Shown: positions 85 through 37,916 of the stretch, one piece after another
Position numbering within the stretch: the first letter of the stretch is position 1
How the letters are laid out: the number at the start of each line of letters is the position of its first letter
NCBI GenBank assembly: GCA_964554085.1
Contig: CAZKMY010000001.1
Coordinates: 4,949 to 45,289, forward strand
Length of the DNA: 40,341 nt
Direction of reading: 5' to 3'
Origin: an uncultured Pseudomonadales bacterium
GTDB lineage: Bacteria; Patescibacteriota; Microgenomatia; UBA1400; RBG-16-45-19
Position numbers and translations under genes: made by a program
The notes under the pieces: model-generated
Told to the model about the DNA's origin: nothing
Databases searched by the model: none
Seen by the model: only the letters and a program-made list of their open reading frames with translations

Positions 85-948
85 TCAGCAATTGAATAAT
101 TCGTGCATCGCGCGCGGAATAGCCTGCAATAAATCCGACGCGTTATAAAACCGCCCTACTTGATCCGCGCACAATTCCCCCGCCCGTTTATTCACTCGGC
201 TCGCAGCCACTGCCGCTGGCAAAATCTCATTTGTGGTACACAATGCCGCTGCCAATCCTGCCAACACATCTCCAGTTCCCCCTTTTGTCATCCCCACATT
301 GCCCCCCTCCACCTTTACCACCTCATCTCCTTGCACGATCATATCCGTCTTCCCTTTCAATATAATCGTCAATCCATCATGTTCCTGAGAAAATGCTTTT
401 AGTTTTTTTTCTTCCTGTGTCCTGCCCCCTGTCTCCTGTCCACTGATCCTCTCCCACTCCTTATGATGCGGGGTAATCAACATATTGCCCGTCAACAATT
501 CCGAATCAACTTCCTGTAACGCTCCTCCATCAATCACCCATCGTTTATCCGGAAACCGCCGCAATAAATGATTAACCACCTCATGGGTAGCTGCTTCACC
601 TTGTTCCAATCCCTCCTGCCGTGTCATCCCCGGTCCAATTAAAATACAATCATCTTCTGCAATATATTCTTCAACCCGTTCCCATGGCACCACTATCCCA
701 TTCCAAAAATGCTCCTTAAGCCGCGTCCGCATCAGGTGATTATTTACTTCAGCCGGACTTGTCACATGTACCATATCCACGACCCTGCTTGCCACCTCCG
801 CCGACCAAATCAAGCTCGCATGAAACAGCTCCGATCCTCCAATTACCAACAATTTCCCATTTTGTCCCTTATGCGAATCGCCTTGTGGTTGAACAAGATT
901 GAACCAATATTCTTGTAACTTGTTGCTTGTAACTTGTTGCTTTTTCAT
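85..948 (-). CDS. nnrD: NAD(P)H-hydrate dehydratase (YjeF C-terminal / Nnr family)
   Basis: 287-aa ORF with ATG at 946-948. Motifs GKLLVIGGS, ITPHHKEWERI and KGGTGDVLAG fit the YjeF_C carbohydrate-kinase fold. Codons 4-12 are encoded by a perfect 14-nt tandem duplication. Confidence 0.75.
   Translation of the reverse strand: MKKQQVTSNKLQEYWFNLVQPQGDSHKGQNGKLLVIGGSELFHASLIWSAEVASRVVDMVHVTSPAEVNNHLMRTRLKEHFWNGIVVPWERVEEYIAEDDCILIGPGMTRQEGLEQGEAATHEVVNHLLRRFPDKRWVIDGGALQEVDSELLTGNMLITPHHKEWERISGQETGGRTQEEKKLKAFSQEHDGLTIILKGKTDMIVQGDEVVKVEGGNVGMTKGGTGDVLAGLAAALCTTNEILPAAVAASRVNKRAGELCADQVGRFYNASDLLQAIPRAMHELFNC
912..939 (+). repeat. Pyrimidine-rich pseudo-tandem element, CTTGT subfamily (perfect 2 x 14 nt: cttgtaacttgttg)
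   Basis: Direct reading: cttgtaacttgttg cttgtaacttgttg. It lies inside the nnr N-terminus and reads as QQVTSNKLQ on the minus strand. Confidence 0.7.
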
Positions 949-964
949 CTTCTTATCATATCTT

Positions 965-2077
965 TCATTTACCTAGCCGCAATATCGACGATTTTCCGGT
1001 TAATTTTTGCACCACCCGTTCATCCGTAGTAGTCAATATAGTTTGCTGTCCCTCAATCATTCTCAGCACCTGCTCTTCGTGAACTTCATCCAACTCACTC
1101 AAAATATCATCTAGCAACAACAACGGGCGCTCCCGTAATCGTTCAGCCATAAACCTGAGTTGAGCTTCTTTTAACCACAACACCGCCATCCGCTGTTCTC
1201 CTCTCGACCCATAAACTGAAAGGTCCCTTTCTTCACCGTTCCCTATACCCTGTCCTCCATCAACTATCCGTATATCATCCTTATGCGGCCCCACCAAAGT
1301 GTATCCAACTGCCAATTCTTCACGCTCATACTGAGCCAGTCGTTCTACCGAAATCGTTGATCGTTCATAATGGACACCAAGATTACCTGACATGCTGGGT
1401 AATTGGTTAATATGTTGCAGCAGCTCTTCGCGCTTCGCACTCATTACCCCCCCATCACGTACCAAGACCTGATCCCAAAAAGCCAAAGCAGTCCGCTGTA
1501 CTTGCCCCTCCCGTATTAAATCCAATAGTTTATTCCGTTGCTTGAGCGCTTTTTCATAGCTAGCCAGACATCGCGCATATTCCCGGTCTACCTGTACCAA
1601 CACATCATCCAAAAACCGCCGCCTGAGTGAAGCAGATCCTACCAACAAATCCATATCCTCTGGTCGAAATAACACCGCTGGCAACTCTCCCACAAAATCT
1701 TGTTTCCTTCTCCCCGCTCCATTAATCTTAAATAACCGTTTTTGTACCCGTTTACCCTGCACCATCCCTCGTGTTACGGTTACCTGCAAAGAAATTTTTT
1801 CCATAGCATCTCCCTTATTAAGGGAGACCGGCTCATTTCCAGATGATGCCGAGAGAGTTACTTCTCCTGTCACATGTCCCACCTCATGCTTCCACGCCAC
1901 CATTTCTTCAATCCGACTAGCCCGAAAACTTTCCCCCGTAGCCAGCAAAAACACCGCCTCCAAAATATTGGTTTTCCCCCGGGCATTGTCTCCCACAATC
2001 ACGGTCACTCCCGAATTAAACTCCGACGCAAGTTGAGCATGATTACGAAATTGGACCAACGACAATGTACTAAGCAC
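965..2077 (-). CDS. recF: DNA replication/repair protein RecF
   Basis: 370 aa with GTG start. N-terminus is LSLVQFRNH, Walker A is GDNARGKTNILEA, and the C-terminal part has LLLLDDILSELD (Walker B / SMC-like). Confidence 0.9.
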   Translation of the reverse strand: MLSTLSLVQFRNHAQLASEFNSGVTVIVGDNARGKTNILEAVFLLATGESFRASRIEEMVAWKHEVGHVTGEVTLSASSGNEPVSLNKGDAMEKISLQVTVTRGMVQGKRVQKRLFKINGAGRRKQDFVGELPAVLFRPEDMDLLVGSASLRRRFLDDVLVQVDREYARCLASYEKALKQRNKLLDLIREGQVQRTALAFWDQVLVRDGGVMSAKREELLQHINQLPSMSGNLGVHYERSTISVERLAQYEREELAVGYTLVGPHKDDIRIVDGGQGIGNGEERDLSVYGSRGEQRMAVLWLKEAQLRFMAERLRERPLLLLDDILSELDEVHEEQVLRMIEGQQTILTTTDERVVQKLTGKSSILRLGK

Positions 2078-2891: not shown

Positions 2892-3893
2892 TCACCTCTG
2901 GCACTGCGGACAAAAATATGTTCCCCGTCCCCCGAGAGAAATTTTCTGTATGTTCGTATGACAGGCACGACACGGCTGACCTTCTCGATCATAAACCAAG
3001 AATTGGTCTTGATAATGTCCTCCCAAACCCTTGGTGTCCACAAAATGGCTATAGCTGGCTCCACCCGCAGTAATTCCCGCCTCAATCACCTGTTTCATCG
3101 CCTCATGCAACTTTATTACCGCATGCATTTTTAATTGATTTGCAGGCATTTTTGGATGAATACCAGCAAGATATAACGCATCATTTGCGTAAATATTCCC
3201 CATCCCACCAATTTTGTCTTGGTCCAAAATCACCAACTTGACAGCTCGACCTGATGTCCGCAATACCTGACTCAAATAATCCACGGTAAAAGCGTCATCA
3301 ACCACATCTGGAGCCATTCCATCCCTATACCCTACCCACTCCTGCCTATTCACTATTCTGACCCACCCAAACAACCGCTGATCATTAAAGTAAAGGATAC
3401 TACCATCACTAAAGTGAAAGATTACTCGCGTATGCTTGCTCGGCAATTCATGTATCCAATCACGGGTAGGATGTCCACCAACTATACGGTCAGTAACAGC
3501 TTGCCCTGAGCGAAGTCGAAGGGGATGCCCCCCTACAATTCTTTTTTCTTTTTTTTCTGAACCCTGTCCCCTAGACCCTACCGCCTCGTAAATAAGTTGT
3601 CCTGCTGCGCCCCACGAAGTCCCGCCACGGCGGGACGAAGTGGGGTCATTTTCATATATTAATTGTCCCGTCATTTTCAAATGTACCAACACTACCAAAT
3701 CGTCCGTCAGTTCCACCACAATTATCTTCTGCTTTCGCGTTACCGAAACAATCTTCTTCCCCACCAAGAAAGATTTATCCTGAGCGTAGTCGAAGGACTT
3801 ATTTTTCAACACCTCAATCGAATCAATCACTTTCCCCGGCAAAACCGTTTGTAATTGCTGTACTATTGTTTCAACCTCGGGAAGTTCAGGCAT
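2892..3893 (-). CDS. mutM: Formamidopyrimidine-DNA glycosylase (Fpg/MutM) carrying in-frame insertions
   Basis: Start reassigned to ATG 3891-3893, which gives the obligatory MPELPEVET N-terminus. HLKMTGQL is present, as is the C-terminal zinc finger CRACHTN...CPQC. The protein is about 55 aa longer than typical Fpg because of insertions between HLKMTGQLIYE and KHTRVIF. Confidence 0.9.
   Translation of the reverse strand: MPELPEVETIVQQLQTVLPGKVIDSIEVLKNKSFDYAQDKSFLVGKKIVSVTRKQKIIVVELTDDLVVLVHLKMTGQLIYENDPTSSRRGGTSWGAAGQLIYEAVGSRGQGSEKKEKRIVGGHPLRLRSGQAVTDRIVGGHPTRDWIHELPSKHTRVIFHFSDGSILYFNDQRLFGWVRIVNRQEWVGYRDGMAPDVVDDAFTVDYLSQVLRTSGRAVKLVILDQDKIGGMGNIYANDALYLAGIHPKMPANQLKMHAVIKLHEAMKQVIEAGITAGGASYSHFVDTKGLGGHYQDQFLVYDREGQPCRACHTNIQKISLGGRGTYFCPQCQR
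3489..3521 (+). repeat. GC-rich CTGAGCGAAGTCGAAGG core element inserted in frame in fpg (read as LRLRSGQAVTD)
   Basis: Core ctgagcgaagtcgaagg at 3506-3522. It is flanked by two diverged copies of the host segment encoding RIVGGHP (3468-3488 and 3522-3542). Confidence 0.7.
3560..3584 (+). repeat. Pyrimidine-rich element, CCCTRT subfamily, in frame in fpg
   Basis: aaccctgtcccctagaccctaccgc, preceded by the polypyrimidine run cttttttcttttttttc. It reads as GSRGQGSEKKEK on the minus strand. Confidence 0.6.
3610..3645 (+). repeat. Palindromic GC-rich hairpin inserted in frame in fpg
   Basis: ccccacgaagtcccgcc ac ggcgggacgaagtgggg. The outer CCCCA/TGGGG and inner GTCCCGCC/GGCGGGAC arms are complementary. 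Two copies of the host segment encoding GQLIYE flank it (3585-3602 and 3651-3668). Confidence 0.7.
3779..3797 (+). repeat. GC-rich CTGAGCGTAGTCGAAGG core element in frame in the fpg N-terminal domain
   Basis: cctgagcgtagtcgaagga, flanked by the imperfect direct repeats aaagatttat (3769-3778) and aaggacttat (3793-3802). The protein reads KSF-DYAQD-KSF. Confidence 0.6.
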
Positions 3894-3946
3894 TTTCACC
3901 TCTACTGTTCTTGCCCTTCCGTAGCTTTAGCGTAGGAGGGTCTACC

Positions 3947-5080
3947 TCAGGCAATTCTGGCACGCTTCTTCTCCCACTCCCGATTTACCAACTCTTTCAT
4001 CTCCTTTACGAATCGTTCTTTCGAGAATTTTTGTGCATGAAGTCGGATTTTTGATCTCTCAAACGAGATACTCTTACACATCTCAATCCCTTTCACCAGA
4101 CTCTGAGCCGTCAATTCGTCAAAAAAGATGCCTGTTTCCCCCTCGATGATTGTTTCCAAATATCCACCTCCCCGATAGGCAATCACAGGGGTTCCCGCCA
4201 GTTGTGCTTCCACAGGTGTAATCCCGAAATCCTCATCTTTTGCCAAAGCTAAAAATGCAAATGCCCCTGCATACAATGCTCCCAATTTGTCATCGCTCAC
4301 ATGACCTAAAAATTCCACCGTAGGGCCAGCCAAAGCCCGTAAATCCCGTTCTTCATGGCCCCATCCCGCTCCTGTTCCCACCACCTTAAGGGGCATATGG
4401 AGTTGATTCGCTGCCTCGACCGCTAATCCTAATCCTTTCCCTCCAACCAATCTCGATATCACCAATAAATAATCCCCTTTTTCTATCCCCTGTAACCTAT
4501 TATCTATACCCCGTACTTCCACTGGAGGATAAATAACTTCACTTTCTCGTCGCCAGAACTTTGCTATCCGTTTTCGAACATTCTTAGAATTTGCCACTAA
4601 CACATCCACTGTCTGAGCTGTCATGTAATCAAATTGCCGCAATTCTTTGTTTACAATTGCCGCATACACCCGCACTGGCCAATATTTTCTCCAATTAATA
4701 CTCGTGTCATATCCATACAGATAGCGAGGTGGCGTATGAATATATGACACATGCAGCGTTGTATTAGGTACCCGTATTCCTTTTGTCATATACCAAGAAC
4801 TTGAAGAAATCACCACGTCATAGTCAGAAAAATCAAACGACCTCCATATTTGGGGAGCCAAAAACCGCAATGGGCTATGGAGTTTTCGAGCAAAAAATGG
4901 CACGTGGTGAGCCCATGACCCCCGGATATCTCGGTGCTTCAATCGCTCATACGCCGATGACCCACACCGAAAAAAAGCAGTGTAAATGGGAGCCTCTGGA
5001 TACATCTCCGCCAACACTTCCAGCACCCGTTCTGCCCCACCATAGTCATTCAAATAGTCATGAACCAATGCAATTCTCAT
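3947..5080 (-). CDS. Glycosyltransferase, GT4/GT1-fold family
   Basis: 377 aa. N-terminus is MRIALVHDYLNDYGGAERV and the C-terminal part has EDFGITPVEAQLAGTPVIA (EX7E-type motif). Confidence 0.8.
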   Translation of the reverse strand: MRIALVHDYLNDYGGAERVLEVLAEMYPEAPIYTAFFRCGSSAYERLKHRDIRGSWAHHVPFFARKLHSPLRFLAPQIWRSFDFSDYDVVISSSSWYMTKGIRVPNTTLHVSYIHTPPRYLYGYDTSINWRKYWPVRVYAAIVNKELRQFDYMTAQTVDVLVANSKNVRKRIAKFWRRESEVIYPPVEVRGIDNRLQGIEKGDYLLVISRLVGGKGLGLAVEAANQLHMPLKVVGTGAGWGHEERDLRALAGPTVEFLGHVSDDKLGALYAGAFAFLALAKDEDFGITPVEAQLAGTPVIAYRGGGYLETIIEGETGIFFDELTAQSLVKGIEMCKSISFERSKIRLHAQKFSKERFVKEMKELVNREWEKKRARIA

Positions 5081-5087
5081 AGCTATC

Positions 5088-5113
5088 CTCTAAACCCTAT
5101 CCCCTAATTCCTA
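5088..5113 (+). repeat. Pyrimidine-rich element, CCCTRT subfamily (intergenic)
   Basis: ctctaaaccctatcccctaattccta. It fills the spacer between the GT4 start and the exonuclease stop. Confidence 0.6.
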
Positions 5114-6079
5114 AAATAATGCTTCCTGTACTGATTCTTCAAACGTATCCCTCGGCAATTTTGGAATCAGACTTTTAAAATCATATTTTGTCAGCACTGC
5201 AATCGCCTTATTCTTATCATACGTGGTCAACTTGCAATGATCCCAATCCAACTGAATTGGCACATTCGTCACAATGGTTGCCAGTTGTTTACTATCAAAT
5301 GCCTGCTTCCTATCTCTTATCAATTTCTCTGCAATTTTTTTTGATAATTGTCTTGTTTCTTGTTTCTTGTCACTTGTATCTAAATACTCATACACCCCTT
5401 CAACTGATCCATACGCCCCAATTAAATCAGCTGCCGTCTTCGGTCCAATTCCGGTCACTCCCGGAATATTATCACTACTATCCCCCGCCAATCCCTTGTA
5501 ATCAGGTACTTGTTCTGGCCATACCCCTAATAACTCCTTTACACTCGTGCGGTCTACCATTCTTGATTGACGCATACCCGTTCCCGGCACAAACACACTG
5601 ATCACCTCATCCACCAACTGCCACATATCCCGATCCCCCGTCACAATCATCACCTGCACACCACCTTCGCCTAAACCCTGTCCCCTGTCCCCTGTACCCT
5701 GTGCCGCAGCCTGTTTGGCCAACGTCCCAATCACATCATCTGCTTCAAATCCCAACACTGAATACGTCGGAATATTTAAATCTCCTAAAATTTCCTGCAC
5801 AATCGGTTCTTGAGATTTTAATTCATCGGGCATTTTTTCCCGATGTGCCTTGTATGACTCAAACGCTTCGTGCCGAAATGTTTTTCCCACATCAAATGAC
5901 ACCGCTAAATGTGTTGGTTTTAATTCCGTCATGGTGGATAAAAGAATCCGGGTAAATCCATACGCCGCATTCACCAATTGGCCATCTGCCATCGCCAAAC
6001 TTTGAGGAAACGCAAAAAACGCTCGATAAAGGAGTGCATGTCCATCAATAAGCACTAACCGTTTGAGGTCCGTCGTCAT
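5111..6079 (-). CDS. Stand-alone 5'-3' exonuclease / flap endonuclease (Pol I N-terminal domain only)
   Basis: 322 aa. Motifs are LVLIDGHALLYRAFFA, EADDVIGTLA, IVTGDRDMWQL and GDSSDNIPGVTGIGPKTA. There is no polymerase domain. It carries two in-frame low-complexity inserts. Confidence 0.85.
   Translation of the reverse strand: MTTDLKRLVLIDGHALLYRAFFAFPQSLAMADGQLVNAAYGFTRILLSTMTELKPTHLAVSFDVGKTFRHEAFESYKAHREKMPDELKSQEPIVQEILGDLNIPTYSVLGFEADDVIGTLAKQAAAQGTGDRGQGLGEGGVQVMIVTGDRDMWQLVDEVISVFVPGTGMRQSRMVDRTSVKELLGVWPEQVPDYKGLAGDSSDNIPGVTGIGPKTAADLIGAYGSVEGVYEYLDTSDKKQETRQLSKKIAEKLIRDRKQAFDSKQLATIVTNVPIQLDWDHCKLTTYDKNKAIAVLTKYDFKSLIPKLPRDTFEESVQEALF
5349..5383 (+). repeat. Pyrimidine-rich element, CTTGT subfamily, in frame in the exonuclease gene
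   Basis: tgtcttgtttcttgtttcttgtcacttgtatctaa. It closely resembles the element at 18327-18368 and reads as LDTSDKKQETRQ on the minus strand. Confidence 0.7.
5671..5703 (+). repeat. Pyrimidine-rich element, CCCTRT subfamily, in frame in the exonuclease gene
   Basis: ctaaaccctgtcccctgtcccctgtaccctgtg. It reads as AQGTGDRGQGLG on the minus strand. Confidence 0.7.
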
Positions 6080-8834: not shown

Positions 8835-8932
8835 TTTCCCTCAGATTCTAGCAAATTCAGCGCGCAATCATCCAAAGCTGAGCTTGCCGAAGCTGAAGGG
8901 CGTGAGCACTGCAATTTGCGAATCGAGGGAAA
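8835..8932 (+). repeat. Long imperfect hairpin repeat, copy R1 (termini TTCAGCGCGCAATCA ... GAAGGGCGTGAGCACTGCAA)
   Basis: Outer stem is TTTCCCTC (8835-8842) with GAGGGAAA (8925-8932). The next stem is GATTC-ta-GCAAATT with AATTTGC-GAATC. The interior holds gctgagcttgccgaagctgaagggcgtgagcactgc. Confidence 0.75.
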
Positions 8933-8938: not shown

Positions 8939-10654
8939 TCACTTCTTCTCGATATTATACAACCCTGATTTGATAGATATCTTACCCGGTGCCCGTAAAT
9001 TAAACGCTTTCTTCAAATCAGCTCCATCAATAGTCACCTTCCCCTTATCGGTATCAAACAATACATTTGCAGTCACTCCATTATCTGCATACGTCACCGA
9101 CACCCCTGTCACTCGACCATACCCTCCTCCATTGGCATTCGCCTTATCTCGCAATTCCCCAATTGAATAGGGATTTCCACCCCAACAACTCCCTGTCGGA
9201 GTCACCCGATCATCACTTTGTCCAGCTTTAATGAGTACCACCCACGCATTCAAAATATCTGCCATTTCTTCCGCAGAAAGCCACGGATGAGACTTTCCGC
9301 AACTATCTCCGCCACGATCCTTGTACCATCCCTTATAAAACCACGGGCTGCCTGCTTGTTTTTCCCATGCCTGGGCTGTCCAACCACTACGTCCCGATGG
9401 AGTATCCCAAAATCCCGGCGTTGTATGGCCTTGGGAAGAATAAGACATCTGATATCCTCCTGAAGTTGACGCGTACCAAGCAGAAAAGGGTTGACCATTT
9501 TTCACCAATACCCAACCCTTTGTATCATTAACTGCTTTTTCCCAATTCCCCCCTTTTGGACTCGATTTAAACACCTGACAACTTTCCGTTGCACAAATCG
9601 AACTAGACCCATTATTAGTTCTCGCTAACGCATAACTCCGAGCTGCCACGGCCTGTGCTCTAAGTGCCGCCATACCCCCATCATCTCCCCACGAGTTTGG
9701 TACTTCATAAATCCGCTTGGCATACTCTTCCAACGAATAGCTCCCTTGTCCATCAACTTTAATCTGAATATTGGTGTCATAATCTTTTTTAATTTCGATA
9801 TCGCCATAATAAGCGCGCAGAATTTCTTCTGCACTCTGACCTGCTTTCGCTCGCCCATATGCCCCGTACTGACTCATCCCCTTATAGTGAGGTGCCCCAA
9901 ACGAGAAGGCTGCAAATGCCGGGGAAAATCCCGGATTATAATCTGGTCGCGACGCCTTATCATCCGCGAGTGGCACATCACCAACTGTCGTTTGAAATGT
10001 ACCTGTCTTAGCGGATAAAATTTCTTGTTGTCGCTTCGACAACTCCGAAATTTTCCCCGACAATTGTGCCTGATAATCTTTCGCTTTTTTAATCTCTCCC
10101 GCAAAAAAAGTTACCGTTCCTTCAAATTGCGCCCGCATCGATGCCAACTGAGCTTTCCGTTTCTCCAATGCTTTCTTATCATTTTGCAGTTTCAGCAGCG
10201 CTTCGGTCGATTTCATAATAATCGATTTATCTTGATCAACCGCAGAAGTTCGATAGGTCAGTGACCGGGTTAATCCCGCCGCTGTGCCCGAGGACAAAAA
10301 GGTTACCAAGGGGGAAAATTGGCGCGATAGTTTGTAATAACTTCGCACTCGAGCGGCTAAATAGCGGTACTGTGCATCCAATTGCAATTCCCGTGCTTCG
10401 ATATCCCCCTCCAAATGCTGAGTTTCCACATCTGCCAGCGCCAAATCACTTTTAACCTTGGCAATCTTCGCATTAATCGACGAAACTTCTTTTTCCAGTG
10501 GAGTCGTTGCTGCCTCAGACAATTGTTTTAACCGTTGTAGGTCATCAATTTGTTTCTGTAACGATTCAATTGAATCCTCAGCAAAGACAGCTAACCGAGG
10601 AAACCAAAACACGCTCAGCACTATGACAAGTCCCAACACCCAAACTTTTTTCAT
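8939..10654 (-). CDS. Secreted SpoIID/LytB-domain protein with an N-terminal coiled coil
   Basis: Start chosen at ATG 10652-10654, giving the signal peptide MKKVWVLGLVIVLSVFWFPRLAVFA. A long heptad-rich segment follows, then the SpoIID signature ALRAQAVAARSYA. Confidence 0.7.
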   Translation of the reverse strand: MKKVWVLGLVIVLSVFWFPRLAVFAEDSIESLQKQIDDLQRLKQLSEAATTPLEKEVSSINAKIAKVKSDLALADVETQHLEGDIEARELQLDAQYRYLAARVRSYYKLSRQFSPLVTFLSSGTAAGLTRSLTYRTSAVDQDKSIIMKSTEALLKLQNDKKALEKRKAQLASMRAQFEGTVTFFAGEIKKAKDYQAQLSGKISELSKRQQEILSAKTGTFQTTVGDVPLADDKASRPDYNPGFSPAFAAFSFGAPHYKGMSQYGAYGRAKAGQSAEEILRAYYGDIEIKKDYDTNIQIKVDGQGSYSLEEYAKRIYEVPNSWGDDGGMAALRAQAVAARSYALARTNNGSSSICATESCQVFKSSPKGGNWEKAVNDTKGWVLVKNGQPFSAWYASTSGGYQMSYSSQGHTTPGFWDTPSGRSGWTAQAWEKQAGSPWFYKGWYKDRGGDSCGKSHPWLSAEEMADILNAWVVLIKAGQSDDRVTPTGSCWGGNPYSIGELRDKANANGGGYGRVTGVSVTYADNGVTANVLFDTDKGKVTIDGADLKKAFNLRAPGKISIKSGLYNIEKK

Positions 10655-10796
10655 ATTTCTTGTGTCTTGTATCTTCATAGGCAGTTGCACCGCGTCCCTC
10701 GTAACCCGCCATAGGCGGGTGAAGTGGGACTTCCCCATAATACCATTGAACCGCATCTTTTCCTCTTCCCAAGAGTCAAGGTATAATACGTCAAGC

Positions 10797-14712: not shown

Positions 14713-15108
14713 TCACTCAACCTTATCTACTAATAATCCAACCGCAATTGGCCAATCAAACACCTCAATCGGTTTATCTCCTAGTTGATCAATTTGTTTT
14801 TTCGCCCTATATACAGTCGCTTCCGACACCCCAGCCAAACGCGCTACTTGTATATTTGTCGCTTCTGGATGAGATTCAAAACAACGAGCAATTATTCTTC
14901 TCTTAATTTCGGCTGGTTTTCGTAATTCACTTGGTAATTTTCCTTCCAAAACGGCTTGATTCAAAGCTCGATGAACCCCCGCCTCTGCAACATTGTTAGC
15001 CATCGCAACTGCCGCAATTTGTCCCGCATGCCTTAAAAAATCACTCACAATGGCGTCGCGAACTTCCGGAGAATAATGATCAAATTGAGTGGATTCTTTC
15101 ACGCCCAT
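14713..15108 (-). CDS. Small helix-turn-helix DNA-binding protein
   Basis: 131 aa. The HTH-like segment is TNIQVARLAGVSEATVYRAKKQ. It is divergent from the ECF sigma gene. Confidence 0.5.
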   Translation of the reverse strand: MGVKESTQFDHYSPEVRDAIVSDFLRHAGQIAAVAMANNVAEAGVHRALNQAVLEGKLPSELRKPAEIKRRIIARCFESHPEATNIQVARLAGVSEATVYRAKKQIDQLGDKPIEVFDWPIAVGLLVDKVE

Positions 15109-15145: not shown

Positions 15146-15279
15146 TTTTGCAGATCGCTCATAAAGTTTTTTCAGCGCGCAATCACCTGCCTCGCCGGCA
15201 AGGCGGGTCCGAAGCTGAGCCTGCCGAAGCTGAAGGGCGTGAGCACTGCAAAAAAACGTATGTGCAAACTGCAAAAAAA
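15146..15279 (+). repeat. Long imperfect hairpin repeat, copy R2 (nested stems)
   Basis: Outer stem is TTTTGCAG (15146-15153) with CTGCAAAA (15269-15276). Inner stem is TTTTTTCAG (15167-15175) with CTG-c-AAAAAA (15246-15256). The interior has ttcagcgcgcaatca, then the GC hairpin cctgcctcgccggcaaggcggg (15186-15207), then gctgagcctgccgaagctgaagggcgtgagcactgc. Confidence 0.75.
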
Positions 15280-16069: not shown

Positions 16070-16431
16070 ATACAAATCATGACTCAAGACTTATGACTCA
16101 ACACTTAACACTATCCTGGTCCTACTGGTTTGGCAGCCGCACCCAAGGATTAATTATTCATCCCTACATCACCATGCGCGAAATTGTTCGCGAACATTTT
16201 CTTCGTCCCCTCACCTTCATCCCCACCGTTATCTGGATTATCTCCTGGATAGCAGCCATGATAATCGGCAGAATTGGCTTGTTTTTTAATCTCCATCTTC
16301 AAACCTGGACTATTCCGGTCGGAAAAAGCCTCGTCTTCGCCTGGTGCTGGCTTTCTTGGTTTTTACTCCTTTGGCAAATCCTTCTTAGCTATCTTTATCT
16401 TCGTTTTCGTTTTTTACCAAATCGGACCTAA
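16060..16431 (+). CDS. Membrane protein (123 aa, about 3 TM), unknown function
   Basis: ATG 16060 overlaps the previous ORF by 10 nt in another frame. The N-terminus is encoded by the GACTYA-type element. Confidence 0.45.
   Translation: MEINTNHDSRLMTQHLTLSWSYWFGSRTQGLIIHPYITMREIVREHFLRPLTFIPTVIWIISWIAAMIIGRIGLFFNLHLQTWTIPVGKSLVFAWCWLSWFLLLWQILLSYLYLRFRFLPNRT
16078..16112 (+). repeat. Pseudo-tandem element, GACTYA subfamily
   Basis: catgactcaagacttatgactcaacacttaacact, read as HDSRLMTQHLTL. It is related to the elements at 36607-36640 and 38142-38173. Confidence 0.65.
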
Positions 16432-16440: not shown

Positions 16441-16494
16441 TTTTAGGAGCGCAAGGCGGGTCTGAGTGAAACGAAGGCGTGAGCACTGCAAAAC
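16441..16494 (+). repeat. Hairpin repeat, short diverged copy R3
   Basis: ttttaggagcgcaaggcgggtctgagtgaaacgaaggcgtgagcactgcaaaa. Confidence 0.65.
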
Positions 16495-18326: not shown

Positions 18327-18368
18327 TAACTCGTACTTGTTTCTTGTTACTTGTTACTTGTATCTAAT
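18327..18368 (+). repeat. Pyrimidine-rich element, CTTGT subfamily, in the P8 5' leader
   Basis: taactcgtacttgtttcttgttacttgttacttgtatctaat. It shares cttgtttcttgtYacttgtatctaa with 5349-5383. Confidence 0.7.
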
Positions 18369-18837: not shown

Positions 18838-19215
18838 ATGAAAACAAGGTTAAAAATATCTTTCTTTCTACTTTCTACGTTCTACTTTCTGCTCGTCACC
18901 TCTCCCGTTCGCGCCGCTTGGGAAAAAGTTCAAGATGGCGACGTCGCTACTTTTGGCAGCTTGAGTAGCCTATTCACTAATATCTTAAGTATTACCTTGC
19001 GTCTGGTTGGCATTAGCATGTTTATTATGATTGTGGTCGGAGGGTTCAAATACCTCACTGCAGGGGGTGATTCCAAAGCCACCGAAGCCGCCCAAGGTAC
19101 CATCACCAACGCCATTATTGGCCTTGTTCTCGCCATCATGGCTTGGTTTATTCTTCTTGCCATCAAAGGGTTTACTGGTGTCGACGTCACAAAATTTAAC
19201 ATCATCACCCAATAA
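18838..19215 (+). CDS. Pilin-like protein P9
   Basis: 125 aa with signal peptide MKTRLKISFFLLSTFYFLLVTSPVRA. Hairpin is ISMFIMIVVGGFKYLTAGGDSKATEAAQGTITNAIIGLVLAIMAW. Confidence 0.65.
   Translation: MKTRLKISFFLLSTFYFLLVTSPVRAAWEKVQDGDVATFGSLSSLFTNILSITLRLVGISMFIMIVVGGFKYLTAGGDSKATEAAQGTITNAIIGLVLAIMAWFILLAIKGFTGVDVTKFNIITQ
18859..18892 (+). repeat. Pyrimidine-rich pseudo-tandem element (CTACTTTCT type) forming the P9 signal-peptide core
   Basis: tctttctttctactttctacgttctactttctgc, read as SFFLLSTFYFLL. Confidence 0.5.
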
Positions 19216-34345: not shown

Positions 34346-35749
34346 TTAATACACATATAAGCGCTTTCGTACCGCTCCTACATCAAGGCGGAGAGACTCA
34401 GACTCTTGAAGTTCATGAGTAATCTTCTCGACTGCGTGCATGACGGTAGTATGATCTCGGCCGGAAAAAAGATCTCCTATCTCCATCAGGGGAATCCGAT
34501 AGTCAATTCGCAGTAAATACATGGCAATATGACGGGGAACCACGATCTTTTGAGTTCTGCCACTTCCTTTAAGCTGTTTGACATTGATTCCAAAATGATC
34601 AGCTACCCCCTTTATGAGTTCTGCTGGACGCAGTGGGGGTGGGGCATTCCCTCCGGAAGTAGCTGCTTCAGGCACCTTTCCCAGTGTTGCGAGCACTAAT
34701 TCTTGAGTTAACTCTTTTTTATGAAGTTTTACTTCCGTAGTAAGTTTGACCAAAAATCCCTCAATCTGACGCGCACTCTCAATATTGGCGGCAATTGCTT
34801 GGGCCATTTCCATAGATAATAGTAAATTTCGCTGCTTCGCCTTGATAAGGACAATCGCTGCCCGCAGCTCGAAATCAGGGTTCCCAATATCAACCAAGAG
34901 CCCTGCTTCAAATCGAGATCGAAGACGCGCTTCCAGCATTTTAATCTCTGAAGGGGGGCGATCACTGGTCATTACCACCTGACCTCCACCCTTCAAAATG
35001 GCATTAAACGTATGAAAGAATTCTTCCTGAACCGCATTCTTTCCGGCAATAAACTGAATATCGTCAATAAAAAGCCCTTTAACTTGACGATACCGCTGTT
35101 TAAATTCCCGAGTTGTTTTTTGTTGGATCGCATCAATGATCTCGTTGGTAAACTCCTCTCCCATACAAAAGATGAGTTTCATTTTAGGATCTTTTCTCAA
35201 AGCCTCAATAGCAACCGCTTGCATCAAGTGAGTTTTTCCTACTCCCACCCCCCCATAAATAAAGAGAGGATTGTAGGCTTTCCCCAAGTCTGCCGCTACC
35301 GCCTGGGCCGCCGCATGAGCCATCTCATTACTGGAAGACACGGCAAACGTTTCAAACACAAAATCTTCCCGCAGTCCTACCCGCTGAATTGCCCAATGGA
35401 GGTCGTCGGCCCGTTGTTCTTGGGCAGCAAATAGGGGGCCTGCATCAACAGCTCCTTTCGTGGGCTGGGCCGCAGTTGTCACAATCACAAACCTCAGCTC
35501 CACCGAAGCTTTGGTAATCCTTCCCAGCGCTTCTTGGATTTGTCCATAAAACCGCTGTTCAATAATTCGTTGATGGAACAAGGAGGGGCACTGAATATCT
35601 GCAATAATACGTCCAGACTCCGTTGTGGTGAGTTCGGCCAAGGATAAGGGCTTTATCCAACTGGTATAGGTTGCGGGCGACAGTGAGACCTGAAGATCTT
35701 CTGCCACCAGCTTCCAGACAGACGCAGGTTCATTCATAATGGTATTCAT
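34346..35749 (-). CDS. dnaA: Chromosomal replication initiator DnaA
   Basis: Walker A GGVGVGKTHLMQA, FIDDIQF, and the C-terminal DNA-binding part DHTTVMHA. The start is uncertain: ATG 35749 is chosen, ATG 35737 is possible, and the track start 35809 is GTG. Confidence 0.9.
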   Translation of the reverse strand: MNTIMNEPASVWKLVAEDLQVSLSPATYTSWIKPLSLAELTTTESGRIIADIQCPSLFHQRIIEQRFYGQIQEALGRITKASVELRFVIVTTAAQPTKGAVDAGPLFAAQEQRADDLHWAIQRVGLREDFVFETFAVSSSNEMAHAAAQAVAADLGKAYNPLFIYGGVGVGKTHLMQAVAIEALRKDPKMKLIFCMGEEFTNEIIDAIQQKTTREFKQRYRQVKGLFIDDIQFIAGKNAVQEEFFHTFNAILKGGGQVVMTSDRPPSEIKMLEARLRSRFEAGLLVDIGNPDFELRAAIVLIKAKQRNLLLSMEMAQAIAANIESARQIEGFLVKLTTEVKLHKKELTQELVLATLGKVPEAATSGGNAPPPLRPAELIKGVADHFGINVKQLKGSGRTQKIVVPRHIAMYLLRIDYRIPLMEIGDLFSGRDHTTVMHAVEKITHELQESESLRLDVGAVRKRLYVY

Positions 35750-35890
35750 ATAAAAACACGATTGTGGCAGAGTGGCAGTCTTCGGGTACAGACTAAAAAA
35801 GTTTTCCACAATTGTAAAGACCCAATTTTCATCAAGAATTGTGAGAAGAAATCAACGAAAGGATGTGGTAAGATACTCCCTGTTATTTAA

Positions 35891-35922
35891 CTACACCCTA
35901 TCCCCTACCTCCTATACCCTAA
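35891..35922 (+). repeat. Pyrimidine-rich element, CCCTRT subfamily, upstream of rpmH
   Basis: ctacaccctatcccctacctcctataccctaa. Confidence 0.6.
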
Positions 35923-35931
35923 AAGGAAAAT

Positions 35932-36072
35932 ATGATCAAACGCACCTGGCAACCAAAAAAACTCAAACGCGTCCGTAAGTTCGGCTTCATGGAACGTATG
36001 AATTCTGGTGATGGTAAACGTATTTTGTCTCGCCGCCGCCAAAAAGGCCGCACCAAATTGGTCACCGCCTAA
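35932..36072 (+). CDS. rpmH: 50S ribosomal protein L34
   Basis: Not in the ORF track because it is under 60 aa. Manual translation gives MIKRTWQPKKLKRVRKFGFMERMNSGDGKRILSRRRQKGRTKLVTA. It sits in the canonical position before rnpA. Confidence 0.9.
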   Translation: MIKRTWQPKKLKRVRKFGFMERMNSGDGKRILSRRRQKGRTKLVTA

Positions 36073-36081
36073 CCAAATAAA

Positions 36082-36402
36082 ATGATCCCCGCACAGTATC
36101 GATTAAAGCTTTCCTCGAAAAGCCGTTTTTTAGGAACTAAAAAATCGGGTTTTTGGGTCACCTACGTCACTGCTTCCGCAGACACTCCCCGGTGGGCAGT
36201 GCGCATCACCAAGCGGGTTATTCCCCTCGCCTCACATCGCAATCGCCTTCGTCGACAAATCAATCAGTGGTTGTATAAACAAAGAGAATCATTGTTAAAT
36301 CAATCTATTTTAATAATCATTATGCATGAACCCTCTACTCCAGCAGAATTAGAAGCACTACAAAATGAGCTACAACCATGTTTCAAGCAGAATCAAGAAT
36401 AG
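36082..36402 (+). CDS. rnpA: Ribonuclease P protein component
   Basis: 106 aa and basic. It contains [20 protein letters not shown] and shows synteny with rpmH and yidD. Confidence 0.8.
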
Positions 36403-36614
36403 TTCAGGGGTATAAATTTCTTCGCCAACTCTTTAGTCTCCCGTTGGCAGCCTTAGGAATTACAGAGCATAATTGCCGCTTTTCTCCCACCTGTAGCGAA
36501 TATTGTGGTGAAGCCATTCACAAATACGGATTACTCAAAGGTGGAACAAAATGTGTCGGTCGTATTGTCCGCTGTCGTCCCGGCGTCCCCGGCGGGTTCG
36601 ATCCTTTGACTTAG
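36378..36614 (+). CDS. yidD: Membrane protein insertion efficiency factor YidD
   Basis: [44 protein letters not shown]. Confidence 0.85.
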
Positions 36615-36640
36615 GACTCATGACTTATGACTTAACACTT
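36607..36640 (+). repeat. Pseudo-tandem element, GACTYA subfamily (yidD-yidC spacer)
   Basis: tgacttaggactcatgacttatgacttaacactt. Confidence 0.65.
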
Positions 36641-36647
36641 TTCTGCA

Positions 36648-36656
36648 TGATATACT
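36648..36656 (+). promoter_or_regulatory. Extended -10-like element TGaTATACT, 9 nt upstream of the yidC ATG
   Basis: gcaTGaTATACTtccccatgtATG. Confidence 0.3.
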
Positions 36657-36665
36657 TCCCCATGT

Positions 36666-37439
36666 ATGTTTCAAACACTACTAATCCAACCACTTACCTT
36701 TGTTCTCGCGACCATTACCACTACAGTGGGTAATTATGGCACGGGAATCATTTTATTAACGCTGATTATTCGGTTAGTTCTTCTTCCCATCACCCTTCCC
36801 TCTTTAAAAATGGCCGCCAAGATGCGAGACCTGCAACCCGAAATTGATAAACTAAAGAAAAAATATGGTCAAGACAAAGTTGCTCTTCAACAAGCTCAAC
36901 TCGCTTTATTTCAAGAACATAAAATTAATCCTGCGAGTGGTTGTCTTCCCAACATTTTTCAATTCATTATCTTAATTGCGCTGTATCAAGTAATTAATGG
37001 GGTTACTACTCATCATCCTGCCGGAGCAATTCAATTCTTGTGGTTAGACATTACGAAAGCCGACTCACTCTACATCCTTCCCGTCGTTGCAGCGCTCACC
37101 CAGCTTATTCTCGGAGTGATGATGTTGCCGGCTACGGACACCTCTGCTGAACAAGCTTTGGCTGCCACCACAAACACGAAAGAAGACGATAAAAAAGCTG
37201 ATGATATGACCGCTATGGCTCAATCCATGCAACAACAAATGCTGTTTATGATGCCCGTAATGACCCTCTTCCTTGCTCTTAAATTTCCCGCAGGTCTTAC
37301 GCTGTACTGGGTAATTACCACAGTTTTTAGTATTGGTCAGCAATACATTGCCTCCGGTTGGGGAGGCCTCCCACACTCGGTTACCAAAACAAAAGTGTGG
37401 CTGTCTCGAGTATCAACTCGGAAGACTTCCACAAAATAG
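36666..37439 (+). CDS. yidC: YidC/Oxa1-family membrane protein insertase (short form)
   Basis: 257 aa. Motifs are GIILLTLIIRLVLLPIT, NPASGCLP and LTLYWVITTVFSIGQQ. Confidence 0.85.
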   Translation: MFQTLLIQPLTFVLATITTTVGNYGTGIILLTLIIRLVLLPITLPSLKMAAKMRDLQPEIDKLKKKYGQDKVALQQAQLALFQEHKINPASGCLPNIFQFIILIALYQVINGVTTHHPAGAIQFLWLDITKADSLYILPVVAALTQLILGVMMLPATDTSAEQALAATTNTKEDDKKADDMTAMAQSMQQQMLFMMPVMTLFLALKFPAGLTLYWVITTVFSIGQQYIASGWGGLPHSVTKTKVWLSRVSTRKTSTK

Positions 37440-37451
37440 AAAGGATTCGTC

Positions 37452-37916
37452 ATGACTGACAATCGCCTACAAAAAATTGAAGATTTACTCAAAGGTATGA
37501 GTTTTTCTGACGCTCAAATTTCCGCTGAAGAAACTGATGGCCATGTCCAAATTGCTATCACTCTCCCCGAAACCGACTCGGGGGCCCTTATTGGGTATCA
37601 TGGGGAAAAAATCGATGCCCTTCAGTTAGTTGCCAATTTGATGTGGAATCAGAACGCCGTTGTCTATACTCCCGTCCAAATAGACATTAATGGCTATCGG
37701 GCTCGTCGCCGCCAAACTCTGGAAGACTTAGCGGACAAAGCCGCTGCTAAAGCCATCGAAAGTGGCCGAGAAATTCTTCTCCCCCATCTTCCCAGTTACG
37801 AACGCCGCATTATTCATCTCTACCTCGAAAATAGATCTGACGTTACCACCTATTCAGAGGGTGAGGGGGAAGAGCGCCGCTTAGTTGTCCGCCCCGGCAC
37901 TGAATCTGCCGAATAA
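37452..37916 (+). CDS. jag: Jag/SpoIIIJ-associated RNA-binding protein (KH + R3H)
   Basis: 154 aa. The KH-like segment is LIGYHGEKIDALQ and the R3H segment is LPSYERRIIHLYL. Confidence 0.75.
   Translation: MTDNRLQKIEDLLKGMSFSDAQISAEETDGHVQIAITLPETDSGALIGYHGEKIDALQLVANLMWNQNAVVYTPVQIDINGYRARRRQTLEDLADKAAAKAIESGREILLPHLPSYERRIIHLYLENRSDVTTYSEGEGEERRLVVRPGTESAE

What the first reader, a model, noticed from the sequence alone, without database searches (positions are those of the whole stretch)
3468..3802. fpg carries four in-frame micro-insertions, each bracketed by a duplicated piece of host coding sequence
The protein reads as follows, with duplicated flanks in parentheses and inserts in square brackets:
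- HLKMT(GQLIYE)[NDPTSSRRGGTSWGAA](GQLIYE)
- [AVGSRGQGSEKKEK]
- (RIVGGHP)[LRLRSGQAVTD](RIVGGHP)TRDW
- further N-terminal, N(KSF)[DYAQD](KSF)

The bracketed inserts correspond to a 36-nt GC palindrome (3610-3645), a CCCTRT pyrimidine element (3560-3584) and two CTGAGCG(A/T)AGTCGAAGG cores (3506-3522 and 3779-3797). Those cores are the same one found inside the intergenic hairpin family. The duplicated flanks are diverged at synonymous positions, so the events are old. All catalytic landmarks survive: the PELPEVE N-terminus, H2TH and the zinc finger.

This resembles Rickettsia palindromic elements, which insert in frame into genes. Here, however, there are 9-21-nt target-like duplications and several element types stacked in one loop.
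Basis: partly seen in the sequence, partly recalled or inferred. Interest (0 to 1): 0.7.

Follow-up and report, generated by a model that had tools for sequence, protein, structure and literature searches.

The report
Tiny repeat elements inserted in-frame in fpg
A DNA-repair gene (fpg) of an uncultured CPR bacterium has picked up several very small repeated DNA elements that are read through as extra surface-loop protein, and one of them is a sharply bounded 25-base unit that turns up nearly unchanged in at least 14 bacterial phyla.

Summary
The sequence features are real. The fpg CDS (2892-3893, minus strand) is intact and keeps every column that is invariant in 28 orthologues. It carries about 60 extra residues.

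Close relatives supply empty sites:
- A 95%-identical orthologue lacks the 66-nt block (GC hairpin plus second GQLIYE).
- A 77% orthologue lacks the 54-nt block (LRLRSGQA plus second RIVGGHP).
- Others lack all the inserts.

The inserts are copies of three dispersed micro-repeat types:
- A 25-nt unit, YCCTTCGACTNCGCTCAGGRYAARC, present twice. It gave more than 120 hits in genomes of at least 14 phyla, with about 1.6 expected by chance.
- A 37-nt GC hairpin, with an intergenic cousin at 10694-10730 and copies in 55 metagenome contigs.
- A heptamer array.

All the loop inserts fall in a predicted disordered loop.

Two flank duplications are genuine. They differ only at synonymous sites, and they coincide with recombination breakpoints. 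This fits repair or recombination better than transposase-type target duplications. The "KSF" duplication is not supported, and the heptamer block has no duplication.

The closest known analogues are Rickettsia palindromic elements and cyanobacterial small dispersed repeats. The insertion mechanism is inferred, not shown. My verdict is a new variant of a known kind, of moderately high interest.

The parts
2892..3893 (-). fpg/mutM CDS (333 aa), host gene of the inserts. The real start is ATG 3893 (MPELPEVE).
   Evidence: Pfam Fapy_DNA_glyco + H2TH + zf-FPG. The AF2 model matches solved MutM structures with TM 0.86-0.90. All columns invariant in 28 orthologues are kept.
3773..3797 (-). 25-nt element copy E1b, TCCTTCGACTACGCTCAGGATAAAT, read as (S)FDYAQDK.
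   Evidence: Zero mismatches to the cross-phylum 22-mer. Present in P0002 and P0003, absent from P0004-P0010. A diverged copy sits at the same site in P0011.
3651..3668 (-). GQLIYE copy 1 (GGACAATTAATATATGAA). Modelled as the canonical beta-strand.
   Evidence: Strand E78-83 in the AF2 model.
3603..3650 (-). Unique part of the 66-nt block (NDPTSSRRGGTSWGAA). It contains the 37-nt GC hairpin element E2 at 3609-3645.
   Evidence: Absent from L001/P0002, which gives the empty site GQLIYE|A. RNA fold -25.7 kcal/mol, z -2.7. Same family in 55 metagenome contigs.
3585..3602 (-). GQLIYE copy 2 (GGACAACTTATTTACGAG).
   Evidence: 5 of 18 nt differ from copy 1, all synonymous.
3543..3584 (-). Heptamer-array block plus A-rich run (AVGSRGQGSEKKEK). 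No flank duplication.
   Evidence: 74-91% identical to arrays at 5083-5112, 5664-5702, 35891-35920 and 37935-37964. Present in P0002 and P0003, absent from P0004, P0005 and P0007.
3522..3542 (-). RIVGGHP copy 1 (AGAATTGTAGGGGGGCATCCC). Its last two bases overlap the element's first CC (microhomology).
   Evidence: Lies in the region with pLDDT below 50.
3499..3523 (-). 25-nt element copy E1a, CCCTTCGACTTCGCTCAGGGCAAGC, read as (P)LRLRSGQA.
   Evidence: Absent from L002/P0003. Same element at the same codon in L005/P0028.
3489..3498 (-). 10-nt filler TGTTACTGAC between E1a and the second RIVGGHP copy. It restores the reading frame.
   Evidence: The corresponding filler in L005 is different (AGTAAG...).
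3468..3488 (-). RIVGGHP copy 2 (CGTATAGTTGGTGGACATCCT). Continuous with the conserved GGHPTxDW motif.
   Evidence: 7 of 21 nt differ from copy 1, all synonymous. The best phylogenetic breakpoint of the gene falls here.
3575..3748 (.). Recombination patch. It is 50-78% identical to the L001 allele, while the flanks 2971-3570 and 3751-4410 are 100% identical. It contains the 66-nt block.
   Evidence: Sliding identity. Alignment.
10694..10730 (+). Intergenic cousin of the GC hairpin E2, in the 5' leader of the SpoIID-like gene.
   Evidence: CCCGCCA-N-GGCGGG occurs twice in the window against 0 expected. Same two-stem fold, -24.5 kcal/mol, z -3.6. Absent at the orthologous place in L003.
5676..5702 (-). 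Same heptamer family (CCCTGTC x3.9) inserted in frame in the neighbouring 5'-3' exonuclease gene (GTGDRGQGLGEGG).
   Evidence: Absent from the 81%-identical L003 orthologue.
5351..5381 (-). Second heptamer family (CTTGTTT x4.4) in frame in the same exonuclease gene (TSDKKQETR).

Best explanation
The fpg gene of this CPR/Patescibacteria genome is functional. It has accumulated, stepwise, copies of three kinds of very small, non-autonomous dispersed repeats:
- a discrete 25-nt unit (E1, two copies);
- a 37-43-nt GC-rich two-stem hairpin (E2);
- a short heptamer array.

Three of the four lie in the turn of one beta-hairpin of the N-terminal domain. The fourth lies in a nearby N-terminal loop. They persist for three reasons. 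Five of E1's six reading frames are open. Fillers or duplications bring each event to a multiple of three. The loop is solvent-exposed and tolerant.

Shown:
- element identity and dispersal;
- empty sites in relatives;
- location in a disordered loop;
- an intact catalytic core.

Inferred:
- The elements enter by a repair or replication route that uses microhomology, not by a dedicated transposase making fixed staggered cuts. The candidate routes are template switching and short-patch or homology-facilitated illegitimate recombination. The microhomologies are CC at CAT-CC|CCTTCGA and TCCTTC at KSF.
- Such a route can resume upstream, giving a flank duplication of variable length, or downstream, giving replacement, as at the N-terminal site.
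- Afterwards, homologous recombination between diverged fpg alleles moves whole insert-bearing patches. It also replaces one flank up to the heterology. This is why the duplicated flanks differ only at synonymous sites.
For: Presence and absence of the inserts:
- P0002 (95% identical) lacks only the 66-nt block.
- P0003 lacks the 54-nt block.
- P0004, P0005 and P0007 lack all the inserts.

E1:
- It is sharply bounded. Information content drops to zero outside positions -1 to +23.
- No recurrent transposase or reverse transcriptase was found in the 8-kb stretches around 120 copies.
- Only 15 viral contigs carry it.
- Its flanks are enriched in direct repeats (>=8 nt in 16% against 0.9% of controls) and inverted repeats (10% against 1.4%).
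- In-frame copies lie inside long open frames whose flanking peptides I recognised by eye (not run through a domain search) as ValRS, CCA-adding enzyme, PyrF and HemN.

E2:
- It has an intergenic cousin in the window and copies in 55 metagenome contigs.
- Some copies lie in frame inside long open frames that read, by eye, like RecF and a glycosyltransferase.

Same window:
- The exonuclease gene carries two in-frame heptamer arrays.

Structure:
- Model pLDDT is 80 overall, with residues 91-134 below 50.
- The canonical strands are GQLIYE copy 1 and RIVGGHP copy 2.
- The fold matches MutM.
- Query residues 80-149 correspond to only residues 81-90 of a solved Fpg.

Recombination:
- A 174-nt diverged patch lies inside 100% identical DNA.
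- The best breakpoint is at CDS nt 411, inside RIVGGHP copy 2, reached by 12 of 500 permutations.

Flank duplications:
- They differ only at synonymous sites, with P = 9e-5 and 1.3e-5 under random change.
- Their lengths vary: 15 nt in L007 (14/15 identical), 27 nt in L005 (23/27), and 18 and 21 nt here.
Against: - No insertion event was observed directly, and the donor molecule and enzymes are unknown.
- A template-switch route does not by itself explain why E1 has such sharp ends.
- E1 sits at exactly the same codon junction (CATCC|CCTTCGA) in a 50%-identical orthologue (L005). That could equally mean site-specific targeting, or ancestral presence followed by many precise losses.
- The breakpoint test is only modestly significant (12/500).
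- The 66-nt block is known from one assembly only.
- The disordered-loop call rests on an AlphaFold model built from 28 sequences.
- The synonymous-only divergence could instead mean that both flank copies are functionally constrained.
Confidence: 0.65

Rival explanations
1. The duplications are classical target-site duplications. A trans-acting transposase or integrase makes staggered cuts, inserts E1 or E2, and gap repair duplicates 15-27 nt of the host.
For: Direct-repeat flanks are enriched around both element families. The L007 duplication is almost perfect (14/15), as expected just after an event. The same junction is used in two distant orthologues.
Against: Duplication length is not fixed: 15, 18, 21 and 27 nt in fpg, and about 7-8 nt in intergenic copies. 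The elements lack terminal inverted repeats. The other in-frame copies inspected (in the frames I read by eye as ValRS, CCA-adding enzyme, PyrF, HemN, RecF and a glycosyltransferase) show no flank duplication. The N-terminal copy replaces host codons instead of duplicating them. No transposase recurs near 120 copies, and the window holds none beyond a weak HTH-only ORF.
Confidence: 0.12
2. The duplicated flanks were never identical. Each duplication is the joint of two diverged fpg alleles, recombined illegitimately or within a shared element. Homology-facilitated illegitimate recombination after DNA uptake is one such route. On this view the element is a portable joint rather than the cause.
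For: There are 12 differences between flank copies and none is non-synonymous (joint P about 1e-9). The 5' part of the gene is closer to L002 (36:20 informative sites) and the 3' part closer to L003 (20:38), with the switch inside RIVGGHP copy 2. There is a 174-nt imported patch around the other duplication.
Against: In L007 and L005 the duplicated flanks are nearly identical at the DNA level (14/15 and 23/27), which indicates real duplications that then age. The breakpoint P is only about 0.02. Both GQLIYE copies lie inside the same imported patch, so that duplication predates the import.
Confidence: 0.15
3. The extra segment is an ancestral, lineage-specific loop. The repeats are low-complexity coincidence, and relatives without it have lost it.
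For: The loop is variable throughout CPR Fpg, from 5 to about 70 residues. Direct repeats would favour precise loss.
Against: There are stepwise empty sites in 95%, 77% and 80% identical orthologues. The inserts match, base for base, elements found in intergenic DNA and in other phyla. The baseline loop is a 5-residue turn in most orthologues.
Confidence: 0.03
4. The inserts are functional or regulated. Options are an adaptive surface loop, a phase-variable segment excised between the direct repeats, or a segment skipped by the ribosome between matching take-off and landing peptides, as with mitochondrial 'byp' GC clusters.
For: Both flank copies keep their amino acids despite saturated synonymous change. 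There is a stable hairpin between identical peptide repeats. Alleles with and without the block coexist.
Against: The inserts have no stop codon or frameshift, so bypass is not needed. Insert sequences differ between lineages at the same loop. The region is predicted to be disordered. The with/without polymorphism is embedded in a diverged patch, so it is not a clean excision.
Confidence: 0.03
5. The feature is an assembly artefact or a strain chimera.
For: The 66-nt block and its patch come from a single metagenome-derived contig. A patch between identical flanks is what an assembly-graph bubble looks like.
Against: Three of the four inserts are reproduced exactly in an independent assembly (L001). 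A bubble path is still a real haplotype. The frame and conserved residues are intact.
Confidence: 0.02

Closest known systems
Rickettsia palindromic elements (RPE; Ogata et al. 2000 and 2002, as summarised in PMC10969869)
   Same: Selfish repeats inserted in frame into unrelated housekeeping genes. They are translated as extra peptide compatible with the fold, and copies of the same families also occur outside genes.
   Different: RPEs are about 100-150 bp, restricted to Rickettsia, and each has its own conserved ORF. Here the units are 25-43 nt, several unrelated types are stacked in one loop, two come with duplicated host codons, and one type is shared by at least 14 phyla.
Small dispersed repeats (SDR) of Nostocaceae (Elhai et al. 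2008, Genome Res 18:1484). The paper is not held, so features are from memory.
   Same: Discrete units of 21-27 nt without coding capacity. They are dispersed, show presence/absence differences between relatives, and are associated with heptamer tandem repeats, hairpins or palindrome centres. E1 is 25 nt and occurs in Nodularia, Anabaena and Trichormus inside heptamer arrays.
   Different: SDRs were reported only in Nostocaceae and as intergenic elements. Here the host is a CPR bacterium, the copies are in frame in genes, and the unit is cross-phylum. Whether E1 equals one of SDR1-8 could not be checked.
REP/REPIN elements with RAYT transposases; GTAG/CGTC-tagged palindromes (PMC3116915, PMC3733652)
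   Same: Short (20-40 nt) GC-rich imperfect palindromes, highly dispersed and non-autonomous. E2 is of this size and shape.
   Different: REPs are extragenic and lineage-specific and depend on a RAYT gene. No RAYT was seen here, E2 lies inside a CDS, and E1 is not a palindrome.
Cyanobacterial STRR heptamer tandem repeats (from memory)
   Same: Tandem 7-nt units of several sequence families scattered through the genome. The window has about a dozen such arrays.
   Different: Here three-unit or four-unit arrays sit in frame inside fpg and the exonuclease gene of a CPR genome.
Short-patch double illegitimate recombination and homology-facilitated illegitimate recombination in transformable bacteria (from memory)
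   Same: Microhomology-guided insertion or replacement of short foreign stretches, with variable duplications or deletions at the joints. This is the route I infer.
   Different: Those processes use arbitrary donor DNA. Here the donor is a recurrent, sharply bounded unit.

Membership tests
Fpg/MutM DNA glycosylase (host gene) | N-terminal PELPEVE, Fapy_DNA_glyco + H2TH + C4 zinc finger, and the MutM fold. | tested here: met
   Pfam hits, invariant columns kept, PDB sequence hits at 1e-47, Foldseek TM 0.86-0.90 to MutM.
Rickettsia palindromic elements | In-frame insertion into housekeeping ORFs with the fold preserved. | tested here: met
Rickettsia palindromic elements | Element of about 100-150 bp with a long palindromic structure and a conserved encoded peptide. 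| tested here: not met
   E1 is 25 nt and does not fold (z -0.2 and -1.8). E2 is 37 nt.
Rickettsia palindromic elements | Sequence similarity to the RPE-1 to RPE-10 consensus; Rickettsia host. | not tested
   No RPE sequences were at hand. The host is CPR-like.
Small dispersed repeats (SDR, Elhai 2008) | Discrete unit of 21-27 nt with sharp ends. | tested here: met
   Information profile of 122 copies: conserved from -1 to +23 only.
Small dispersed repeats (SDR, Elhai 2008) | Dispersed, embedded in heptamer arrays, hairpins or palindromes; presence/absence between relatives. | tested here: met
   context; presence/absence and module swap.
Small dispersed repeats (SDR, Elhai 2008) | Identity to one of the published SDR1-8 consensus sequences. 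| not testable with these tools
   The paper is not held. Full-text search for the core sequence found no paper.
Small dispersed repeats (SDR, Elhai 2008) | Restricted to Nostocaceae. | tested here: not met
   Hits in at least 14 phyla. The restriction is stated in PMC5861425.
REP/REPIN-RAYT | Extragenic imperfect palindrome of 20-40 nt. | tested here: inconclusive
   E2 has the size and shape, and most metagenomic copies are intergenic, but this copy and several others are inside ORFs.
REP/REPIN-RAYT | A cognate RAYT (Y1 transposase) gene in the genome. | tested here: inconclusive
   None in the 40-kb window or near 120 E1 copies. The whole genome was not available.
MITE / classical DNA transposon | Terminal inverted repeats and a target-site duplication of fixed length. 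| tested here: not met
   E1 has no terminal inverted repeats. Duplications range from 0 to 27 nt.
Any Rfam RNA family | Match to a curated covariance model. | tested here: not met
   No match at the gathering threshold in the window. Only noise at E<=10 in 3400-3900. Nothing overlaps E1 in 17 other loci.

The most novel reading that the evidence does not exclude
E1 (YCCTTCGACTNCGCTCAGGRYAARC) is an undescribed class of ultra-small mobile DNA. It is a sharply bounded 25-nt unit kept almost invariant across at least 14 bacterial phyla. It has no transposase, no terminal repeats and no conserved flanks. On this reading it is copied into hairpin tips, heptamer arrays and, in frame, into essential genes, through a host repair or replication route that uses a discrete small nucleic-acid donor. 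The variable flank duplications in fpg would be the scars of that route.
Probability: 0.25. Interest if true: 0.85.

Novelty: new variant of a known kind. Interest (0 to 1): 0.6.

Why it matters
If this is correct, streamlined CPR genomes carry selfish micro-repeats that reshape protein surfaces in housekeeping enzymes. In this window that applies to fpg and the 5'-3' exonuclease; a 16-residue extra segment in a RecF-like gene was not characterised. This affects how CPR proteins are aligned, modelled and annotated. Peptides of the LRLRSGQA, FDYAQDK or PTSSRRGG type are element read-through, not domains.

More broadly, a 25-nt unit conserved at nucleotide level across many phyla, with no associated gene, asks what machinery copies it. 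The filled and empty fpg alleles give a concrete test bed, with datable and partly independent events at one loop, for the mechanism of the smallest mobile repeats. That question has been open since the cyanobacterial SDRs were described.

Tried and rejected
- **Rfam.** Searches at the gathering threshold and at E<=10 found nothing relevant. The only nearby hit was a single Flavo-1 RNA 7 nt upstream of one E1 copy in a Flavobacterium, which did not recur.
- **E. coli genomes.** No match to the E1 region.
- **Literature.** Searches by peptide and by DNA core found nothing. The SDR paper is not held, and a search for SDR names returned only dehydrogenases.
- **Loop peptide search.** A second protein search with the loop peptide, meant to find the donor lineage of the 66-nt block, returned no scored hit.
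- **Mobilising gene.** All-against-all clustering of ORFs in the stretches fetched around 120 E1 copies found only generic families: ABC ATPases, response regulators and kinases.
- **Tandem duplication as origin.** The inserted peptides do not resemble the sequence that follows the second flank copy (read).
- **DGR-type adenine mutagenesis as cause of the diverged patch.** The differences are of all base types (by eye).
- **Organism name.** Cluster look-up returned no name.
Full report
**1. What is at the locus**

The minus-strand ORF 2892-3899 is a formamidopyrimidine-DNA glycosylase gene.
- Pfam finds Fapy_DNA_glyco, H2TH and the Fpg zinc finger.
- The real start is the ATG at 3893, which gives the obligatory MPELPEVE N-terminus. 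The database copy of this protein (P0001) is 333 aa.

Reading along the coding strand, the layout is:

| Feature | Window coordinates |
|---|---|
| 25-nt unit E1b, TCCTTCGACTACGCTCAGGATAAAT | 3773-3797 |
| GQLIYE copy 1 | 3651-3668 |
| 48-nt segment, containing a 37-nt GC hairpin (E2) at 3609-3645 | 3603-3650 |
| GQLIYE copy 2 | 3585-3602 |
| Three AGGGNNN heptamers plus an A-rich run | 3543-3584 |
| RIVGGHP copy 1 | 3522-3542 |
| 25-nt unit E1a, CCCTTCGACTTCGCTCAGGGCAAGC | 3499-3523 |
| 10-nt filler | 3489-3498 |
| RIVGGHP copy 2 | 3468-3488 |

**2. Are these real insertions?**

Yes, for the three loop blocks, on the evidence of orthologues.
- The commonest form of the loop in this group of orthologues is a five-residue turn (GQLVFVDGKKRVVGGHP).
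- P0002 is 95% identical and comes from an independent assembly. It lacks exactly the 66-nt block (hairpin plus GQLIYE copy 2) and keeps everything else.
- P0003 (77% identical) also lacks the 54-nt block (E1a, filler and one RIVGGHP copy).
- P0004, P0005 and P0007 lack all the inserts.
- The DNA alignments give clean empty sites.
- Against a solved Fpg, query residues 80-149 correspond to only residues 81-90.

The protein core appears intact.
- The AlphaFold model has pLDDT 80.
- GQLIYE copy 1 (E78-83) and RIVGGHP copy 2 (138-144) take the canonical strand positions.
- Everything between them (residues 91-134) scores below 50.
- The core superposes on MutM-DNA complexes with TM 0.86-0.90.
- All columns invariant in the 28 aligned orthologues are retained.

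The gene is therefore very probably functional, and the inserts sit in a loop at the turn of a beta-hairpin. From memory of Fpg structures, that turn lies away from the DNA-intercalating Met/Arg/Phe residues. This point was not measured here.

**3. What the inserts are**

*E1, the 25-nt unit.*
- The 22-mer CCTTCGAYTDCGCTCAGGRYAA occurs twice in the 40-kb window, both times in fpg, against 0 expected.
I estimate about 1.6 matches from base composition alone.
- The 80 hits whose titles were shown come from at least 14 phyla. These include CPR, Cyanobacteriota, Bacteroidota, Chloroflexota, Acidobacteriota, Planctomycetota, Pseudomonadota, Omnitrophota, Verrucomicrobiota, Gemmatimonadota, Spirochaetota, Armatimonadota, Ignavibacteriota and a Binataceae MAG. 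Cultured isolates and a complete chromosome are among them.
- Across 122 distinct copies, conservation extends from position -1 to +23 and then falls to zero. E1 is thus a discrete 25-nt unit, YCCTTCGACTNCGCTCAGGRYAARC.
- Its flanks are not conserved, but within each copy they tend to be related to each other. Direct repeats of >=8 nt occur in 16% of copies against 0.9% of shuffled pairings. Inverted repeats occur in 10% against 1.4%.
- Many copies interrupt heptamer tandem arrays, or fill the loop of a hairpin whose stem differs from copy to copy.
- Five of its six reading frames are open. I recognised in-frame copies by eye, from the flanking peptides and without a domain search, in frames that read like ValRS, CCA-adding enzyme, PyrF and HemN.
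- No gene family recurs in the roughly 8-kb stretches fetched around the copies.
- Only 15 viral contigs carry it.
- No Rfam family matches it.
- No paper in the held library contains the sequence.

*E2, the GC hairpin.*
- It folds into a two-stem hairpin with a 3x3 internal loop (-25.7 kcal/mol, z -2.7).
- A cousin with the same architecture lies in intergenic DNA at 10694-10730. That cousin is absent from the orthologous leader in L003.
- The pattern CCCGCCA-N-GGCGGG-N-GAAGTGGG is found in 55 metagenome contigs, mostly of low GC content. The conserved left arm GCCCCNCGAAK was not part of the search pattern.
- Several of these copies lie in frame in long open frames whose flanking peptides look, by eye, like RecF and a membrane glycosyltransferase.
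- Direct-repeat flanks of about 7 nt are enriched around them (37% against 8%).

*The heptamer block.*
- It belongs to a family with four other copies in the window.
- The neighbouring 5'-3' exonuclease gene carries two in-frame heptamer arrays that its 81%-identical orthologue lacks.
- In-frame micro-insertion is therefore a property of this genome, not of fpg alone.

**4. The flank duplications**

Two are real. An exact 6-mer repeat arises in only 0.19% of shuffles of the protein.

The third is not supported.
- At the N-terminal site, the host codons TCC TTC coincide with the first six bases of E1.
- The element replaces about six host codons, for a net gain of two.
- Insert-free orthologues already read KS.AQSD there.
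- In P0011 a diverged E1 at the same site adds a clean eight codons.

The heptamer block has no duplication.

The two real duplications have an odd property. The copies differ at 5 of 18 and 7 of 21 bases, and not one difference changes an amino acid. Under random change the probabilities are 9e-5 and 1.3e-5.

Other fpg orthologues show the same kind of scar at the same hairpin, at different ages:
- L007 has GQLIF twice, 14 of 15 nt identical.
- L005 has three PERVVGGHP copies (23 of 27 nt identical). They are separated by E1, joined at exactly the same codon (CATCC|CCTTCGA), and by a second E1-like variant.
- L009 has a tandem of an E1-like unit plus RVAGG.

The duplication lengths (15, 18, 21 and 27 nt) are not fixed. 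The other in-frame copies of E1 and E2 that I inspected have no duplication at all.

**5. Recombination**

- The window and the L001 allele are 100% identical over 2971-3570 and 3751-4410. They are only 50-78% identical over 3575-3748, the stretch that holds the 66-nt block. The block was therefore imported, or removed, as part of a homeologous patch. Its age is not bounded by the split between the window and L001.
- Informative sites show that the 5' part of the gene is closer to L002 (36:20) and the 3' part closer to L003 (20:38). The best breakpoint is at CDS nt 411, inside RIVGGHP copy 2, and 12 of 500 permutations reach it. This is suggestive, not strong.
- My reading is as follows. Duplications arise identical, as in L007. 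Later gene-conversion tracts from insert-free alleles end at the heterology and overwrite one flank copy with a version that has evolved under selection elsewhere. That would give synonymous-only divergence without requiring selection on a redundant copy. This is inference.

**6. Mechanism**

Shown:
- the inserts are copies of dispersed micro-repeats;
- they were gained stepwise;
- they are tolerated in a disordered loop.

Inferred:
- Entry is through microhomology-guided repair or replication, such as template switching or short-patch/homology-facilitated illegitimate recombination.
- Duplication results when synthesis resumes upstream, and replacement when it resumes downstream.
- Selection then keeps only events that total a multiple of three.

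Against a classical transposon:
- the duplication length varies;
- there are no terminal repeats;
- no associated gene was found.

Left unexplained:
- the sharp ends of E1 and its near-invariance across phyla;
- reuse of the same junction in distant orthologues.

**7. Comparison with known systems**

- In outcome this is the Rickettsia RPE phenomenon, but the elements are four to six times smaller, of several types, and in a different phylum.
- In anatomy, E1 is closest to the 21-27-nt small dispersed repeats of Nostocaceae (Elhai 2008, known to me from memory and). Those were reported only in that family. I could not compare the sequences.
- E2 resembles REP-type palindromes, but no RAYT gene was seen.
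- I file the finding as a new variant of a known kind.

**8. Context**

- The window spans the dnaA-dnaN-yidC-jag origin region and a CPR-type pilin cluster.
- It is syntenic with a 1.29-Mb CPR-like genome.

Noticed in passing
window 5111-6079 (-), arrays at 5676-5702 and 5351-5381: The 5'-3' exonuclease gene carries two in-frame heptamer-array inserts (GTGDRGQGLGEGG and TSDKKQETR). Both are absent from its 81%-identical orthologue in L003.
   Followed up: partly
window 965-2077 (-): The RecF/SMC_N-like gene has a 16-residue insert (ASSGNEPVSLNKGDAM) absent from three relatives, and a GGQGIGNG insert absent from two. The DNA of these inserts was not examined.
   Followed up: no
window 8860-8916, 15173-15253, 16446-16493, 32880-32927; L003 3440-3500: An intergenic hairpin family has conserved outer arms (TTTTCAGCGCGCAATCA ... 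GGCGTGAGCACTGCAAAA) and a variable inner module containing an E1-like CTGAGC..CGAAGG motif. At the orthologous locus in L003 the outer arms are the same but the inner module differs, as if a cassette had been swapped.
   Followed up: partly
window 10640-10790: The GC-hairpin cousin plus CTTGTNT-type heptamers lie between the conserved promoter-like region and the start of the SpoIID-like gene. The stretch is absent from L003.
   Followed up: partly
window 912-942, 5351-5381, 16077-16107, 18334-18361, 18864-18890, 36607-36634, 37934-37957, 38392-38431: There are about a dozen short tandem arrays with a 7-nt period, from several sequence families, in a 44% GC CPR window. They are reminiscent of cyanobacterial STRRs.
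   Followed up: partly
P0006, P0010 (alignment A1, columns 270-282); P0076 loop: Other Fpg orthologues carry a different GC-rich insert (GPASRRRTKASRGRS) in another loop, after HF.DG. P0076 has PTSPSRRQGYAGLRGAG nested in the same hairpin loop as here. The loop is a general sink for repeats: NSKFQ-type and SLVPS-type peptides also occur there.
   Followed up: no
window 14713-15108 (-): A small ORF has a weak HTH_Tnp_1 match (E 1.4e-5, helix-turn-helix only). It lies next to one hairpin-family copy and is the only transposase-like signal in the window.
   Followed up: no
window 32951-37916: dnaN, dnaA, yidC and jag/KhpB are present, so the window spans the chromosomal replication-origin region. 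Heptamer arrays flank dnaA (35891-35920, 36607-36634).
   Followed up: no
L022 1965-2074; L038 26-267: In a Flavobacterium, one E1 copy lies 7 nt downstream of a Flavo-1 RNA (81 bits). In another Flavobacterium, E1 lies about 110 nt upstream of a 5S rRNA gene. Neither association recurred in the other Bacteroidota loci checked.
   Followed up: partly
L125, L010, L087, L050, L062, L090: E1 copies are nested inside reverse-oriented E1-like units, or form about 61-nt perfect hairpins (CCCTTCGACGGAGTTTATCCTGAGC - CCTTCGACTTC - GCTCAGGATAAACTCCGTCGAAGGG). This suggests insertion into the centre of earlier copies.
   Followed up: no
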